DNA of 64,000 bases from the human T2T-CHM13v2.0 reference genome, Homo sapiens: NCBI RefSeq assembly GCF_009914755.1, contig NC_060937.1; one strand, 5' to 3'. Below the pieces are notes generated by a model, which searched no databases, was not told where the DNA came from, and saw only the letters and a list, made by a program, of their open reading frames with translations. The position numbers and the translations under genes were made by a program. Of this stretch, positions 28,901 to 50,996 are shown in pieces (the stretch's first letter is position 1; each line of letters opens with the position of its first letter).

Positions 28901-29100
28901 TAAAATAAAACTATTTAAAAATAAAATATCATAACATTAACTAGCCCCAGAAATATAAGATTTTAATGAAATAAAAATGCCTCTATAATAATCAAACAGT
29001 GAGAAGAAAGTCACACTTTACTCCTATTTTTGTTTCTGATCTATCTTCTATCTAGTTTCAAGTTGTAGAATTTTCTTTTTTCATTTCTAATTAAATTTTA

Positions 29101-31966
29101 TTTTATTTTATTTTTTTATTATACTTTAACTTTTACGGTACATGCGCACAACATGCAGGTTTGTTACATATGTATACATGTGCCATGTTGGTGTGCTGCA
29201 CCCAGTAACTCGCCATTTAACATTAGGTATATCTCCAAATGCTATCCGTCCCCCCTCACCCTACCCCACAACAGGCCCCGGAGTGTGATGTTCCCCTTCT
29301 TCTGCCCATATGTTCTCTTTGGTCAATTCCCACCTATGAGCGAGAACATGCGGTGTTTGGTGTTTTGTGCTTGGATAGTTTGCTCAGAATGATGGTTCCA
29401 GCTTCATCCATGTCCCTATAAAGGACATGAACTCTTCATTTTTTATGGCTGCATTTTGTTCCATGGTGTATATGTGCCACATTTTCTTAATCCAGTCTAT
29501 CATTGTTGGACATTTGGGTTGGTTCCAAGTCTTCGCTATTGTGAACAGTGCCGCAATAAACATACTTGTGCTTGTGCCTTTATAGCAGCATGATTTATAC
29601 TCCCTTGGGTGTATACCCAGTAATGGGATGGCTGGGTCAAATAGTATTTCTAGTTCTAGAGCCCTGAGGAATCGCCACACTGACTTCCACAATGGTTGAA
29701 CTAGTTTACAGTCCCACCAACCGTGTAAAAGTGTTTCTATTTCTCCACATCCTCTCCAGCACCTGTTGTTTCCTGATTTTTTAATGATCGCCATTCTAAG
29801 TGGTGTGAGATGGTATCTCATTGTGGTTTTGATTTGCATTTCTCTGATGGCCAGTGACGATGAGCATTTTTCCATGTGTCTTTTTGCTGCATAAATGTCT
29901 TCTTTTGAGAAGGGTCTTCATATCCTTCACCCACTTTTTGATGGGGTTGTTTTTTTCTTGTAAATTTGTTTGAGTTCATTGTAGATTCTGGATATTAGCC
30001 CTTCGTCAGATGAGTAGATGGCACAAACTTTCTCCCATTCTGTAGGTTGCCTGTTCAGTCTGATGGTAGTTTCTTTTGCTGTGCAGAAGCTCCTTAGTTT
30101 AATTAGATCCCATTTGTCAATTTTGGCTTTTGTTGCCATTGCTTTTGGTGTTCTAGACATGAAGTCCTTCCCCATGCCTATGTCCTGAATGGTATTGCCT
30201 AGGTTTTCTTCTAGGGTTTTTACGGTTTTAGGTCTAACATTTAAGTCTTGAATCCATCTTGAATTAATTTTTGTATAAGGTGCAAGGAAGGGATCCAGTT
30301 TCAGCTTTCTACATACGGCTAGCCAGTTTTCCCAGCACCATTTATTAACTAGGGAATCATTTCCCCATTTCTTGTGTTTGTCAGGTTTGTCAAAGATCAG
30401 ATGGTTGTAGATATGTGGCATTATTTCTCAGGGCTCTGTTCTGTTCCATTGGTCTATATCTCTGTTTTGGTACAAGTACAATGCTGTTTTGGTCACTGTA
30501 GCCTTGTAGTATAGTTTGATGTCAGGTAGCGTGATGGCTCCAGCTTTGTTCTTTTGGTTTAGGATTGACTTGGCAATGAGGGCTCTTTTTTAGTTCCTTA
30601 TGAACTTTAAAGTAGTTTTTTTCTAATTCTGTGAAGAAAGTCTTTGGTAGCTTGATGGGGATGGCATTGAATCTATAAATTACCTTGGGCAGTATGGCCA
30701 TTTTCACGATATTGATTATTCCTACCCATGAGCATGGAATGTTCTTCCATTTGTTTGTATCCTCTTTTATTTCATTGAGCAGTGGTTTGTAGTTCTCCTT
30801 GAAGAGGTCCTTCACGTCCTTGTAAGTTGGGTTCCTAGGTATTTTATTCTCTTTGAAGCAATTGTGAATGGGAGTTCACTCACGATTTGGCTCTCTGTTT
30901 GTCTGTTATTGGTGTATAAGAATGCTAATGATTTTTGCACACTGATTTTGTATCCTGAGACTTTGCTGAAGTTGCCTATCAGCTTAAGGAGATTTTGGGC
31001 TGAGATGATGGGGTTTTCTAGATATACAATCATGTCATCTGCAAACAGGGACAATTTGACTTCCTCTTTTCCTAATTGAATACCCTTTATTTCCTTCTCC
31101 TTCCTGATTGCCCTGGCCAGAATTTCCAACATTGTGTTGAATAGGAGTGGTGAGAGAGGGCATCCCTGTCTTGTGCCTGTTTTCAAAGGGAATGCTTCCA
31201 GCTTTTGCCCATTTAGTATGATATTGGCTATGGCTTTGTCAGAGATAGCTCCTATTACTTTGAGATACGTCTCATCAATTCCTAATTTATTGAGAGTTTT
31301 TTGCAGGAAGAGTTGTTGAATTTTGTCAAAGGCCTTTTCTGCATCTCTTGATATCTCAAGATAATCACATGGTTTTTTTGTCATTGGTTCTGTTTATAAG
31401 GTGGATTACGTTTGTTGATTTGTGTATGTTGAACCAGCCTTGCATCCCAGAGATGAAGCCCACTTGATCATGGTGGATAAGCTTTTTGATATGCTGCTGG
31501 ATTCGGTTTGCCAGTATTTTATTGAGGATTTTTGCATAGATCTTCATCGGAGATATTGGTCTAAAATTCTCTTTTTTTGTTGTGTCTCTGCCAGGCTTTG
31601 GTATCAGGATGATGCTGTCCTCATAAAATGAGTTAGGGAGGTTCCCTCTTTTTCTATTGATTGGAATAGTTTCAGAAGGAATGGTACCAGCTCCTCCTTG
31701 TACCTCTGGTAGATTTTGGCTGTGAATCCATCTGGTCCTGGACTTTTTCTGGTTGGAAAGCTAATTATTAATTATTGCCTCAATTTCAGAGCCTGTTATT
31801 GGTCTATTCAGAGATTCAAATTCTTCCTGGTTTAGTCTTGGGTGGGTGTATGTGTCGAGGAATTTATCCATTTCTTCTAGATTTTCTAGTTTATTTGCAT
31901 AGAGGTGTTTATAGTATTCTCTGATGGTAGTTTGTATTTCTGTGGGATCGGTGGTGATATCCCCTT
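29101..31966 (-). mobile_element. L1PA (L1PA4/5-like) 3' half: ORF2 RT and C-terminal domains, 3' UTR, poly(A)
   Basis: [23 protein letters not shown] and CWRGC...LLHGWWDC; ends abruptly at gtggtgatatcccctt. Confidence 0.95.
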
Positions 31967-48158: not shown

Positions 48159-50996
48159 TGCCGTGGCTTGAGTAGGTAAACAAAGCAGCCAGGAAGCTCC
48201 AACTGGGTGGAGCCAACTGCATCTCAAGGAGGCCTGCCTGACTCTGTAGACTCCACCTCTGGGGGCAGGGAATAGCCAAACAAATGGCAGCAGAATCCTC
48301 TGCAGACTTAAATGTCCCTGTCTGACAGCTTTGAAGAGAGTAGTGGTTATCCCAGCATGCAGCTGGAGATCTGAGAACAGACAGACTGCCTCCTCAAGTG
48401 GGTCCCTGACCCCCGAGTAGCCTATCTGGGAAGCATCCCCAGTAGGGGCAGACTGACACCTCACACGGCCGGGTACTCCTCTGAGACAAAATTTCCAGAG
48501 GAACAATCAGGCAGCAATATTTGCTTTTCACCAATATCCGCTGTTCTGCAGCCTCCACTGCTGATACCCAGGCAAACAGGGTCTGGAGTGGACCTCCAGC
48601 AAACTCCAACAGACCTGCAGCTGAGGGTTCTGACTGTTAGAAGGAAAACTAACAAACAGAAAGTACATCCACAACAAAATCCCATCTGTACATCACAATC
48701 ATCAAAGACCAAAGGAGAGAAAACTACAAAGATGGGGAAAAAACAGAGCAGAAAAACGGAAAATTCTAAAAATCAGAGTATCTCTCCACCTCCAAAGGAA
48801 CACAGCTCCTCACCAGCAATGGAACAAAGCTGGACAGAGAATGACTTTGACGAGTTGAGAGAAGAAGGCTTCAGACGATCAAACTACTCCGAGCTAAAGG
48901 AGGAAGTTCAAACCCATGGCAAAGAAGTGAAAAACCTTTAAAAAAATTAGATGAATAGCTAACTAGAATAACCAATGCAGAGAAGTTCGTAAAGGACCTG
49001 ATGGAGCTGAAAACCAATGTACGAGAAGTACGTGATGAATGCACAAGCCTCAGTAGCCAATTCGATGAACTGGAAGAAAGGGTGTCAGTGATGGAAGATC
49101 AAATGAATGAAATGAAGTGAGAAAAGAAGTTTAGAGAGAAAAAGATAAAAAGAAATGAACAAAACCTCCAAGAAATATGGGACTGTGTGAAAAGACCAAA
49201 TCTACATCTGATTGGTGTACCTGAAAGTTATGAGGAGAATGGAAGCAAGTTGGAAAACACTCTGAAGGATATTATCCATGAGAACTTCCCCAATCTAGCA
49301 AGGGAGGGTGACATTCAAATTCAGGAAATACAGAGAACACCAAAAAGATAATCCTCAAGAAGAGCAACTCCAAGACACATAACTGTCAGATTCACCAAAG
49401 TTGAAATGAAGGAAAAAATGTTAAGGGCAGCCAGAGAGAAAGGTCGGGTTACCCACAAAGGGAAGCCCATCAGACTAACAGCTGATCTCTCGGCAGAAAC
49501 TCTACAAGCCAGAAGAGTGGGGAACAATATTCAACATTCTTAAAGAAAAGAATTTTCAATCCAGAATTTCATATTCATTCAAACTAAGCTTCATAAGTGA
49601 AGGAGAAATAAAATCCTTTACATACAAGCAAACGATGAGAGATTTTGTCACCACCAGGCCTGCCCTAAAAGAGCTCCTGAAGGAAGCACTAAACATGGAA
49701 AGGAACAACCGGTACCAGCCACTGCAAAAACATGCCAAGTTGTAAAGACCATCGAGGCTAGGAAGAAACTGCATCAACTAACGAGCAAAATAACCAGCTA
49801 ACATCATAATGACAGGATCAAATGCACACAAAACAATATTAACCTTAAAAGTAAATGGACTAAATTCTCCCATTAAAAGACACAGACTGGCAAATTGGAT
49901 AAAGAGTCAAGACCCATCAGTGTTCTGTATTCAGGAAACGCATCTCACGTGCAGAGACACACATAGGCTCAAAATAAAGGGATGGAGGAAGATCTACCAA
50001 GCAAATGGAAAACAGAAAAAGGCAGGGGTTACAATCCTAGTGTCTGATAAAACAGACTTTAAAACAATAAAGATCAAAAGAGACAAAGAAGTCCATTACG
50101 TAATGATAAAGGGATCAATGCAATAAGAAGAGCTAATTATCCTGAATATATATGCACCCAATATAGGAGCACACAGATTCATAAAGCAAGTCCTTAGAGA
50201 CCTAGAAAGAGACTTAGACTCCCACACAATAGTAATGGGAGATTTTAACACCCCTCTGTCAACATTAGACATATCAATGAGACAGATAGTTAACAAGGAT
50301 ATCCAGGAATTGAACTCAGCTCTGCACCAAGCAGACCTAATAGACATCTACAGAACTGTCCACCCCAAATCAACAGAATATACATTCTTCTCAGCACCGC
50401 ACCGCACTTATTCCAAAATTGACCACATAGTTGGAAGTAAAGCACTCCTCAGCAAATTGTAAAAGAACAGAAATTATAAAAACCTCTCTCTCAGACCACA
50501 CTGCAATAAAACTAGAACTCAGGATTAAGAAACTCACTCAAAACCGCTCAACTACATGGAAACCAAACAACCTGCTCCCGAATGACTACTGGGTACATAA
50601 CGAAACGAAGGCAGAAATAAAGATGTTCTTTGAAAGCAACGAGAACAAAGACACAACATACCAGAATCTATGGGACACATTCAAAGCAGCGTGTAGAGGG
50701 AAATTTATAGCACTAAAGGCCCACAAGAGAAAGCAGAGAAGATCTAAAATTGACACCCTAACATCACAATTAGAAGAACTAGAGAAGCAAGAGCAAACAC
50801 ATTCAAAAGCTAGCAGAAGGCAAGAAATAACTAAGATCAGAGCAGAATTGAAAGAAATAGACACATAAAAAACCCTTCAAAAAATCAGTGAATTCAGGAG
50901 CTGGTTTTTGAAACGATCAACAAAATTGATAGACTGCTAGCAAGACTAGTAAAGAAGAAAAGAGAGAAGAATCAAATAGACGCAATAAAAACTGAT
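47704..50996 (+). mobile_element. L1PA (L1PA4/5-like) 5' half: 5' UTR, disrupted ORF1, ORF2 endonuclease
   Basis: Starts gggggtggagccaagatgg; ORF1 MGKKQSRKTENSK (ATG about 48732, early stop); ORF2 MTGSNAHKTILTLKVNGLN at 49809; ends abruptly at gcaataaaaactgat. Confidence 0.95.

What the first reader, a model, noticed from the sequence alone, without database searches (positions are those of the whole stretch)
29086..50996. One L1 split into two halves reveals a ~19 kb inversion (31967-50996)
Seen: the + strand L1 5' half stops at ...GCAATAAAAACTGAT (50996), and the - strand 3' half starts at AAGGGGATATCACCACCG (31966). In the L1 consensus these are adjacent (...AAAAAATGATaAAGGGGATATC...), with about 1 nt lost. 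The 15-mer TAAAATTTAATTAGA before the 5' end (47689-47703, a TT/AAAA endonuclease site) recurs reverse-complemented beyond the poly(A) tail (29086-29100), so it is the TSD of a single insertion. Inference: flipping 31967-50996 restores one full-length L1. A 19,030-bp inversion therefore occurred after the L1PA4/5-age insertion. The near-blunt, homology-free junctions suggest end joining rather than NAHR. A repeat annotator would list two unrelated fragments.
Basis: partly seen in the sequence, partly recalled or inferred. Interest (0 to 1): 0.8.

Follow-up and report, generated by a model that had tools for sequence, protein, structure and literature searches.

The report
One L1 split by a 19-kb inversion
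A single old L1 retrotransposon next to the ribosomal DNA arrays was cut in two when a 19-kb stretch of DNA flipped, and all five rDNA-bearing human chromosomes in this assembly carry the same flip: a real but fairly ordinary rearrangement.

Summary
The + strand L1 5' half (47704-50996) and the - strand 3' half (29101-31966) are two pieces of one full-length insertion. They carry the same 15-nt target-site duplication in inverted orientation. In 14 of 14 independent genomic L1s their ends lie exactly one base apart. Their domains are complementary: ORF1 and endonuclease in one, reverse transcriptase in the other. Their divergence is equal within error.

An old paralogue on chr19 (77-86% identity) settles the order of events. 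It has the L1-empty site with one copy of the target, and it is collinear with the window except that 47702->31966 runs backwards. A chr7 paralogue agrees at the second breakpoint.

There is no homology within 1 kb of either junction. One nt is lost at the L1 break and about 8-13 nt at the other, which points to end joining rather than NAHR.

Both junction 60-mers are identical on chr13, 14, 15, 21 and 22, although the nearby sequence differs by 0.3-0.9%. An artefact on one chromosome is therefore unlikely.

I could not test ape orthologues, human polymorphism or the L1PA4/5 label.

The parts
27972..29085 (+). Left flank outside the inversion. It is collinear in + orientation with chr19:30336179-30337543.
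   Evidence: blocks 27972-28719 and 28706-29100, 82% and 77% identity.
29086..29100 (-). Target-site duplication, copy on the poly(A) side
   Evidence: Exact on all five acrocentrics with +-20 nt of context.
29101..31966 (-). L1 3' half, 2866 bp: the part of ORF2 from just before the reverse-transcriptase domain to its end, 3' UTR and a degenerate poly(A) tail
   Evidence: RVT_1 matched from profile position 1. 91.2-93.8% identical to 14 genomic L1s over the 1500 bp nearest the break.
31966..31967 (.). Junction J1: L1 interior joined to inverted host DNA
   Evidence: (the homology to chr19 starts at 31967 in reverse orientation). The 60-mer across it is exact on chr13, 14, 15, 21 and 22.
31967..50996 (.). 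The inverted segment, 19,030 bp: 15,722 bp of host DNA, the 15-nt TSD and 3,293 bp of L1
   Evidence: 12 of 12 homologous host-DNA blocks between 31966 and 47702 are in - orientation and monotonic order relative to chr19. The L1 part has no chr19 counterpart.
47689..47703 (+). Target-site duplication, copy on the 5' side. The preceding bases give a T|AAAA-type cleavage context.
   Evidence: chr19 has a single related copy at 30337545-30337558.
47704..50996 (+). L1 5' half, 3293 bp: 5' UTR from the canonical 5' end, ORF1, ORF2 endonuclease domain and the ORF2 segment that follows it up to the break
   Evidence: Pfam matches Tnp_22_trimer, Transposase_22, Tnp_22_dsRBD and Exo_endo_phos. Two other L1 5' ends on chr7 align from 47704 and 47707.
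50996..50997 (.). Junction J2: L1 interior joined to the uninverted right flank
   Evidence: The 60-mer across it is exact on all five acrocentrics.
50997..59789 (+). Right flank outside the inversion. It is collinear in + orientation with chr19:30354575-30371283.
   Evidence: 8 blocks, 76-86% identity.

Best explanation
A full-length L1 of the L1PA group inserted by ordinary target-primed reverse transcription, in minus orientation, into an AT-rich site of the rDNA-proximal (proximal junction) region. The insertion made a 15-nt target-site duplication. Later the DNA broke at two places 19,030 bp apart. One break was inside L1 ORF2, between the endonuclease and reverse-transcriptase domains. 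The other was in unrelated AT-rich host DNA. The piece between the breaks was rejoined backwards without homology, losing 1 nt at the L1 break and roughly 8-13 nt at the other. This is most simply two double-strand breaks repaired by non-homologous end joining. The inverted arrangement is now present, with identical junctions, on chr13, 14, 15, 21 and 22 of this assembly. Shown: the single insertion, the inversion, its polarity (the acrocentric state is derived), the lack of breakpoint homology, and the presence on all five chromosomes. Inferred: the repair pathway, and spread between chromosomes by heterologous exchange. The confidence given is for the shown part; for classical NHEJ as the pathway I would say about 0.7.
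For: (1) TSD. The same 15-mer abuts the L1 5' end (+) and the poly(A) end (-). It has 2 hits in the window against 0.02 expected.
(2) Adjacency. There is exactly 1 reference base between the two L1 ends in 14 of 14 genomic L1s. One of them, on chr2, was also hit back to back by both queries.
(3) Complementary content. ORF1 domains and Exo_endo_phos are on the + half. RVT_1 from profile position 1 is on the - half.
(4) Equal age. Identity to the 14 reference L1s is 91.2-93.6% on the 5' side and 91.2-93.8% on the 3' side. Private-branch divergence is 4.2-4.6% against 3.4-3.8% over 1500 bp each, about 1 standard error apart.
(5) Empty site. At chr19:30337480-30337620 the homologue of 29020-29100 runs straight into the homologue of rc(47703-47620), with one copy of the target differing at 2 of 15 positions.
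(6) Collinearity. One search kept 47 blocks, of which 22 are collinear: 2 left-flank blocks (+), 12 blocks covering 47702->31966 (all -) and 8 right-flank blocks (+). The other 25 are hits to dispersed Alu and L1 copies.
(7) The uninverted junction is present on chr19, and the chr7 paralogue has the same relative orientation.
(8) There is no significant similarity between the two junction regions within +-300 or +-1000 bp. The best match is 27 nt at 85%, with E 0.012 and 0.14.
(9) The J1 and J2 60-mers and both TSD contexts are exact on all five acrocentrics, while flanking sequence differs by 0.3-0.9% between groups of copies (same spacing).
Against: - The outgroup paralogues are only 77-91% identical, so the sequence at the second breakpoint before inversion is known only to within about 13 nt. 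A 1-2 nt microhomology cannot be excluded.
- All the evidence comes from one assembly. No reads, BACs, other humans or apes were examined.
- The 5' side shows slightly higher private divergence than the 3' side (4.4% against 3.6% with all references). I judge this not significant.
- The repair pathway is inferred from junction anatomy alone.
- An inverted pair of L1 3'-end fragments exists nearby (29115-29590 and 51721-52196, 87% identity), but neither breakpoint lies inside it.
Confidence: 0.93

Rival explanations
1. The same inversion arose by a replication-based template switch (FoSTeS/MMBIR) or by microhomology-mediated end joining, not by classical NHEJ of two double-strand breaks.
For: A 1-2 nt microhomology at J2 is possible if the window's T-C-A-T corresponds to the T-T-A-T of the chr19 and chr7 paralogues. 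Both breakpoints lie in A/T-rich runs.
Against: The event is balanced. There are only small losses at both junctions, and I saw no templated insertion or duplication there. Replication-based events often leave such marks (established knowledge, recalled).
Confidence: 0.2
2. The inversion arose by non-allelic homologous recombination between inverted repeats, as in retrotransposon recombination-mediated inversion.
For: Inverted L1 3'-end fragments of about 480 bp and 87% identity lie at 29115-29590 and 51721-52196. Other inverted L1 pairs are listed.
Against: Neither breakpoint lies in any of these repeats. There is no homology within +-1 kb of J1 and J2. At J1 and J2 the L1 abuts non-L1 DNA rather than forming chimeric elements, which is what Lee et al. 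2008 describe for this class (PMC2603318, passages read).
Confidence: 0.01
3. The two L1 pieces are unrelated fragments, or the structure arose during integration (twin priming or a similar process), so no later inversion of host DNA occurred.
For: L1s with an inverted 5' part are common products of twin priming (passage; mechanism recalled).
Against: The 15.7 kb of host DNA between the pieces is itself inverted relative to chr19. The TSD copies are inverted relative to each other and sit at the true 5' end and at the poly(A) end. A poly(A)-less, 3'-truncated L1 with an intact 5' end is not a product of target-primed reverse transcription (established knowledge). The empty site joins the two outer flanks.
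Confidence: 0.01
4. The inversion is an assembly artefact of the acrocentric short arms.
For: These arms are highly duplicated and hard to assemble. Some copies are identical over 3.4-3.6 kb: chr14 = chr15 at both junction loci, chr21 = chr13 at the J1 locus, and chr21 = chr22 at the J2 locus.
Against: The same junction 60-mers occur in all five copies. These fall into at least two or three sequence groups that differ by 0.3-0.9% nearby, and the spacing is the same on each chromosome. Both junctions are clean and reciprocal.
Confidence: 0.02

Closest known systems
Retrotransposon recombination-mediated inversions (Lee et al. 2008, PMC2603318; passages read)
   Same: An inversion of kilobase scale that involves an L1. 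The ancestral state is read from target-site duplications, which is the same logic as used here. The 19 kb is within their size range (166 bp to 81 kb).
   Different: Those events recombine two inverted homologous elements and leave two chimeric elements with mismatched TSDs. Here one element is broken, the other breakpoint is in non-L1 DNA, and there is no homology.
Simple balanced inversions without flanking inverted repeats in human long-read surveys (PMC12350158; passage read)
   Same: It is balanced, has two breakpoints and has no bordering inverted repeats. In that survey only 45 of 257 balanced inversions were bordered by repeats in inverted orientation.
   Different: This one is present on all five acrocentric chromosomes of this assembly rather than at a single locus. 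It is much larger than that survey's median of 1,565 bp. It was inferred here from paralogues, not from population data.
Twin-priming 5' inversion of L1 (mechanism recalled; mentioned in the passage)
   Same: Two parts of one L1 lie in opposite orientation.
   Different: In twin priming the two parts are contiguous inside one direct TSD pair. Here 15.7 kb of inverted host DNA separates them and the TSD copies are inverted.
Inversion of the rDNA array plus distal junction in chimpanzee relative to human (van Sluis et al. 2019, PMC6942050; passages read)
   Same: It is a structural inversion beside the rDNA arrays that is shared by all acrocentrics of a species.
   Different: That event is very large, includes the rDNA array itself and lies on the other side of it. 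This one is 19 kb, lies wholly within the proximal junction about 23 kb before the first annotated rDNA gene, and contains no annotated gene.

Membership tests
Full-length L1 insertion by target-primed reverse transcription | Matching target-site duplication at both ends | tested here: met
   The 15-mer is identical at both ends, in inverted orientation because of the later inversion.
Full-length L1 insertion by target-primed reverse transcription | Poly(A) tail at the 3' end and an A/T-rich cleavage context at the target | tested here: met
   An A-rich tail lies between the L1 3' end and the TSD. The target reads ...CACATT|AAAATTT. The endonuclease consensus itself is recalled, not tested.
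Full-length L1 insertion by target-primed reverse transcription | L1 ORF1 and ORF2 (endonuclease and reverse transcriptase) content | tested here: met
   Pfam matches Tnp_22_trimer, Transposase_22, Tnp_22_dsRBD, Exo_endo_phos and RVT_1. All reading frames are broken by stops.
Full-length L1 insertion by target-primed reverse transcription | Pre-insertion empty site with one copy of the target | tested here: met
   The chr19 paralogue has it.
L1PA4/L1PA5 subfamily | Diagnostic positions of the subfamily consensus | not testable with these tools
   No repeat-consensus library was available. The nearest genomic copies are 93-94% identical and private divergence is about 3.4-4.6%. That fits a middle-aged L1PA but does not name the subfamily.
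Balanced inversion by non-homologous end joining | Two reciprocal novel junctions, with the intervening DNA reversed relative to an outgroup | tested here: met
Balanced inversion by non-homologous end joining | No extended homology at the breakpoints | tested here: met
   nothing better than 27 nt at 85% within +-1 kb.
Balanced inversion by non-homologous end joining | Small deletions and 0 to a few nt of microhomology at the junctions | tested here: inconclusive
   One nt is lost at the L1 break. About 8-13 nt are lost at the other, judged from paralogues that are 14-18% diverged, so the exact bases are uncertain.
NAHR / retrotransposon recombination-mediated inversion | Breakpoints inside a pair of inverted homologous repeats, giving chimeric elements | tested here: not met
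   At both junctions the L1 abuts non-L1 DNA.
Twin-priming L1 inversion | Both L1 parts contiguous inside one direct TSD pair | tested here: not met

The most novel reading that the evidence does not exclude
The L1 insertion plus this inversion is a compound, effectively irreversible marker of one ancestral proximal-junction copy that later came to occupy all five NOR-bearing chromosomes. If the ape T2T assemblies show that the inversion arose late (for example only in the human or African-ape lineage), or that uninverted copies persist on some chromosomes or haplotypes, it would give a dated time-stamp for sequence exchange between heterologous acrocentric short arms on the proximal side of the rDNA. 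A more speculative variant: both breaks lie in A/T-rich runs resembling L1-endonuclease targets, so the two breaks could have been made by L1 endonuclease without any insertion.
Probability: 0.2. Interest if true: 0.45.

Novelty: new member of a known kind. Interest (0 to 1): 0.3.

Why it matters
- It shows that the arrangement next to the rDNA arrays on all five human acrocentrics in this assembly is derived, and it gives base-level breakpoints.
- It corrects how the two L1 fragments should be annotated: they are one element.
- It provides two junction 60-mers that can serve as presence/absence markers in ape and human pangenome assemblies, to date when this proximal-junction version spread among heterologous chromosomes.
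- It contains no annotated gene or functional element, so no direct functional consequence is expected.

Tried and rejected
- NAHR was rejected: there is no homology at the junctions, and the inverted L1 pairs found lie away from the breakpoints.
- Twin priming and two independent insertions were rejected on geometry and the empty site.
- An assembly artefact on one chromosome was rejected because five copies agree.
- The opposite polarity, with chr19 and chr7 derived, was rejected. An L1 cannot insert as two separated halves, and both outgroup paralogues share the uninverted order.
- Other copies with an intact L1 or another arrangement were sought with the sequence just inside J1 (31967-32380) and just beyond J2 (50997-51600). 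Each search found only the five acrocentric copies, chr19, and either chr7 or a weak chr9 repeat hit, with 7 of 7 candidates scored.
- The flanks next to the TSD are themselves parts of old dispersed repeats, with 5718 and 121 first-look candidates of which 40 each were scored. Only chr19 was informative for the empty site.
- Subfamily naming was not possible, because no consensus library was available.
- Literature: I found no mention of this inversion, or of a chr19 or chr7 relation, in the passages returned for Floutsakou 2013 (PMC3847771), van Sluis 2019 (PMC6942050) and the 2025 ape-acrocentric preprint (10.64898/2025.12.22.696095), or in the search listings. I read only listings and matched passages, not whole texts or supplements, so a figure or supplement could still show it.
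Full report
**1. The observation**

The window is chr13:5,704,001-5,768,000 of T2T-CHM13, about 10 kb before the first annotated rDNA gene (hub annotation).

- At 47704 an L1 begins on the + strand. The 15-mer TAAAATTTAATTAGA (47689-47703) lies directly before it.
- This L1 stops abruptly at 50996, and unrelated sequence follows.
- On the - strand another L1 piece runs from 31966 down to an A-rich tail ending at 29101. 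The reverse complement of the same 15-mer follows at 29086-29100.
- With up to one mismatch on both strands, the 15-mer occurs exactly twice in the 64 kb. Shuffles give 0.02 expected, and 0 of 100 shuffles gave two hits.

**2. The two pieces are one element**

I used independent genomic L1 copies as a ruler. Searches of the window's own genome with the last 800 bp of the + piece and the first 800 bp of the - piece returned the five acrocentric copies and many L1s at 91-94% identity (40 of 6313 and 40 of 7916 first-look candidates were scored). I aligned the 1500 bp on each side of the break to the 14 non-acrocentric loci that were fetched.

- Adjacency: the two ends are separated by exactly one reference base in 14 of 14. 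This is direct in 11. In 3 it holds after allowing for 1-2 unaligned terminal query bases. The script's '-3' for minus-oriented hits is a sign error, and the coordinates show 1.
- An older L1 elsewhere in the window (7643->4923) gives the same answer: 21 nt against 20 nt.
- Identity to the 14 references is 91.2-93.6% on the 5' side and 91.2-93.8% on the 3' side.
- Private-branch divergence comes from pairwise distances only, with no consensus built. It is 4.2-4.6% for the 5' side (n = 7, 7 and 14 references for the three panels) and 3.4-3.8% for the 3' side (n = 6, 6 and 12; two partial alignments were dropped). That is about one standard error apart over 1500 bp.
- Pfam finds the three ORF1 domains and the endonuclease on the + piece, and the reverse transcriptase from its first profile position on the - piece (11 stop-to-stop frames were scanned and 6 had L1-type hits). 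Every frame is broken by stops, so this is a long-dead copy.
- Two other L1 5' ends on chr7 align from 47704 and 47707, so the + piece starts at the canonical 5' end.
- The total length is 3293 + 1 + 2866 = 6160 bp including the tail.

**3. Paralogues as outgroups**

The sequence just right of J2 (50997-51600) has 100%-identity copies on chr13, 14, 15, 21 and 22, and old paralogues on chr19 (86%) and chr7 (89%) (7 of 7 candidates scored). I fetched 60 kb of chr19 and compared it with the window. Of the 47 non-overlapping blocks kept:

- 22 form one collinear chain, and 25 are hits to dispersed Alu and L1 copies.
- The chain runs 27972-29100 (+, 2 blocks), then 47702 down to 31966 (-, 12 blocks, monotonic), then 50999-59789 (+, 8 blocks). 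Identity is 76-86%.

At base level, chr19:30337480-30337620 shows the homologue of the window's left flank running straight into the homologue of rc(47703-47620). It has a single copy of the target, differing at 2 of 15 positions. This is the L1-empty, pre-insertion site, and it proves that the two outer flanks of the two L1 pieces were once contiguous.

At the other end, chr19 reads ...TTATTAAACCC, then 13 nt, then TTTGTGTGG.... The window has ...TTATTAAACCC joined to L1 at J1, and L1 joined to CA-TTTATGTGG at J2.

The chr7 paralogue is collinear with chr19 at 86-91% identity and has the same relative orientation across this point. It shares TTATTTTGTGTGG with chr19.

The acrocentric arrangement is therefore derived. 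The L1 inserted first, and then 31967-50996 (19,030 bp) was inverted.

**4. Mechanism**

BLAST with word size 7 between the two junction regions finds nothing significant within +-300 or +-1000 bp. The best match is 27 nt at 85%, with E 0.012 and 0.14. The nearest inverted L1 homology (29115-29590 against 51721-52196, 87%) lies more than 700 bp from the second breakpoint and about 2.4 kb from the first. Other inverted L1 pairs are also away from the junctions. NAHR is excluded.

One nt is missing at the L1 break. About 8-13 nt of the sequence seen in the paralogues are missing or replaced at the other break. A 1-2 nt microhomology is possible but cannot be resolved with outgroups that are 14-18% diverged. 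I saw no duplication or templated insertion. Two double-strand breaks rejoined by non-homologous end joining is the simplest reading. A microhomology-mediated or replicative switch remains possible (about 0.2). Both breaks lie in A/T-rich runs, and a role for L1 endonuclease is pure speculation.

**5. Distribution and age**

The 60-mers across J1 and J2, and both TSD copies with +-20 nt of context, are exact on all five acrocentrics, at the same spacing. The surrounding 3.4-3.6 kb is not identical.

- At the J1 locus, chr13 = chr21, chr22 differs from them by 1 mismatch, and chr14 = chr15. The two groups are 99.1% identical over the 2678 bp that aligned.
- At the J2 locus, chr21 = chr22 and chr14 = chr15, while chr13 differs from both groups by 10 mismatches. 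The three groups are about 99.7% identical to one another.

So the inversion predates the divergence of these copy groups, and it is unlikely to be an assembly error on one chromosome.

The upper age bound is the L1 insertion. Its private divergence of about 4% fits a middle-aged L1PA. No uninverted copy with an intact L1 exists in this assembly at the sensitivity.

**6. Comparison with what is known**

Reading ancestral states from TSDs is an established method (Lee et al. 2008, PMC2603318, passages read). Their class requires two inverted homologous elements, which is not met here. Balanced inversions without flanking inverted repeats are common in long-read surveys (PMC12350158, passage read).

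The proximal junction is known to be shared by all acrocentrics and to be 92.4% segmentally duplicated, mostly with pericentromeric regions (Floutsakou 2013, PMC3847771, passages read).

I found no mention of this inversion in the listings and passages I saw. I did not read whole texts, figures or supplements.

**7. Verdict**

It is a new, cleanly resolved instance of a known kind of event, in a region of current interest, with no annotated gene affected. Its main use is as a marker for dating exchange among acrocentric short arms.

Noticed in passing
window 27972-59789; L008-L013 (chr19:30336179-30371283): About 32 kb of the rDNA-proximal region is an ancient paralogue (76-86% identity) of a chr19 segment. 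Further copies lie on chr7 (about 66.62-66.64 Mb, 80-89%) and at chr19:23.436 Mb (81%). This identity is below the usual 90% cut-off for segmental duplications (recalled), so it may be missing from duplication catalogues.
   Followed up: partly
L001-L005 and L014-L018 (the five acrocentric copies around J2 and J1): The grouping of the copies changes between the two junctions. At the J1 locus chr13 is identical to chr21. At the J2 locus chr13 differs from chr21 = chr22 by 10 mismatches. chr14 = chr15 at both. This is a mosaic pattern, as expected from exchange between heterologous short arms.
   Followed up: no
window 32378-34425: About 2 kb is present in the acrocentric copy but absent from the chr19 paralogue, which jumps from 34426 to 32377. 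It is repeat-masked DNA, probably later insertions.
   Followed up: no
window 40162-41036 and 51721-52196: Two further L1 3'-end fragments are 90% and 87% identical to the 3' end of the split L1. The first sits inside an older L1 (37900-43688).
   Followed up: no
L011 (chr19:30348473-30350445): The chr19 paralogue carries its own L1 insertion of about 2 kb, 92.9% identical to the split L1's 3' part. It sits at the position equivalent to window 38309/38323 and is absent from the window.
   Followed up: no
window 60669-61141: This stretch matches, at 77% identity, a segment repeated every 43,949 bp on chr15:3.25-3.77 Mb, that is, once per rDNA unit. It is presumably a dispersed repeat in the rDNA spacer. 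The whole of 59800-63900 also has a 90% copy at chr15:14.81 Mb.
   Followed up: no
L069 (chr7:66617437-66618433 and 66625266-66627000): The chr7 paralogue is interrupted by two L1s in opposite orientations, both with canonical 5' ends and 87-89% identical to the split L1's 5' part.
   Followed up: no
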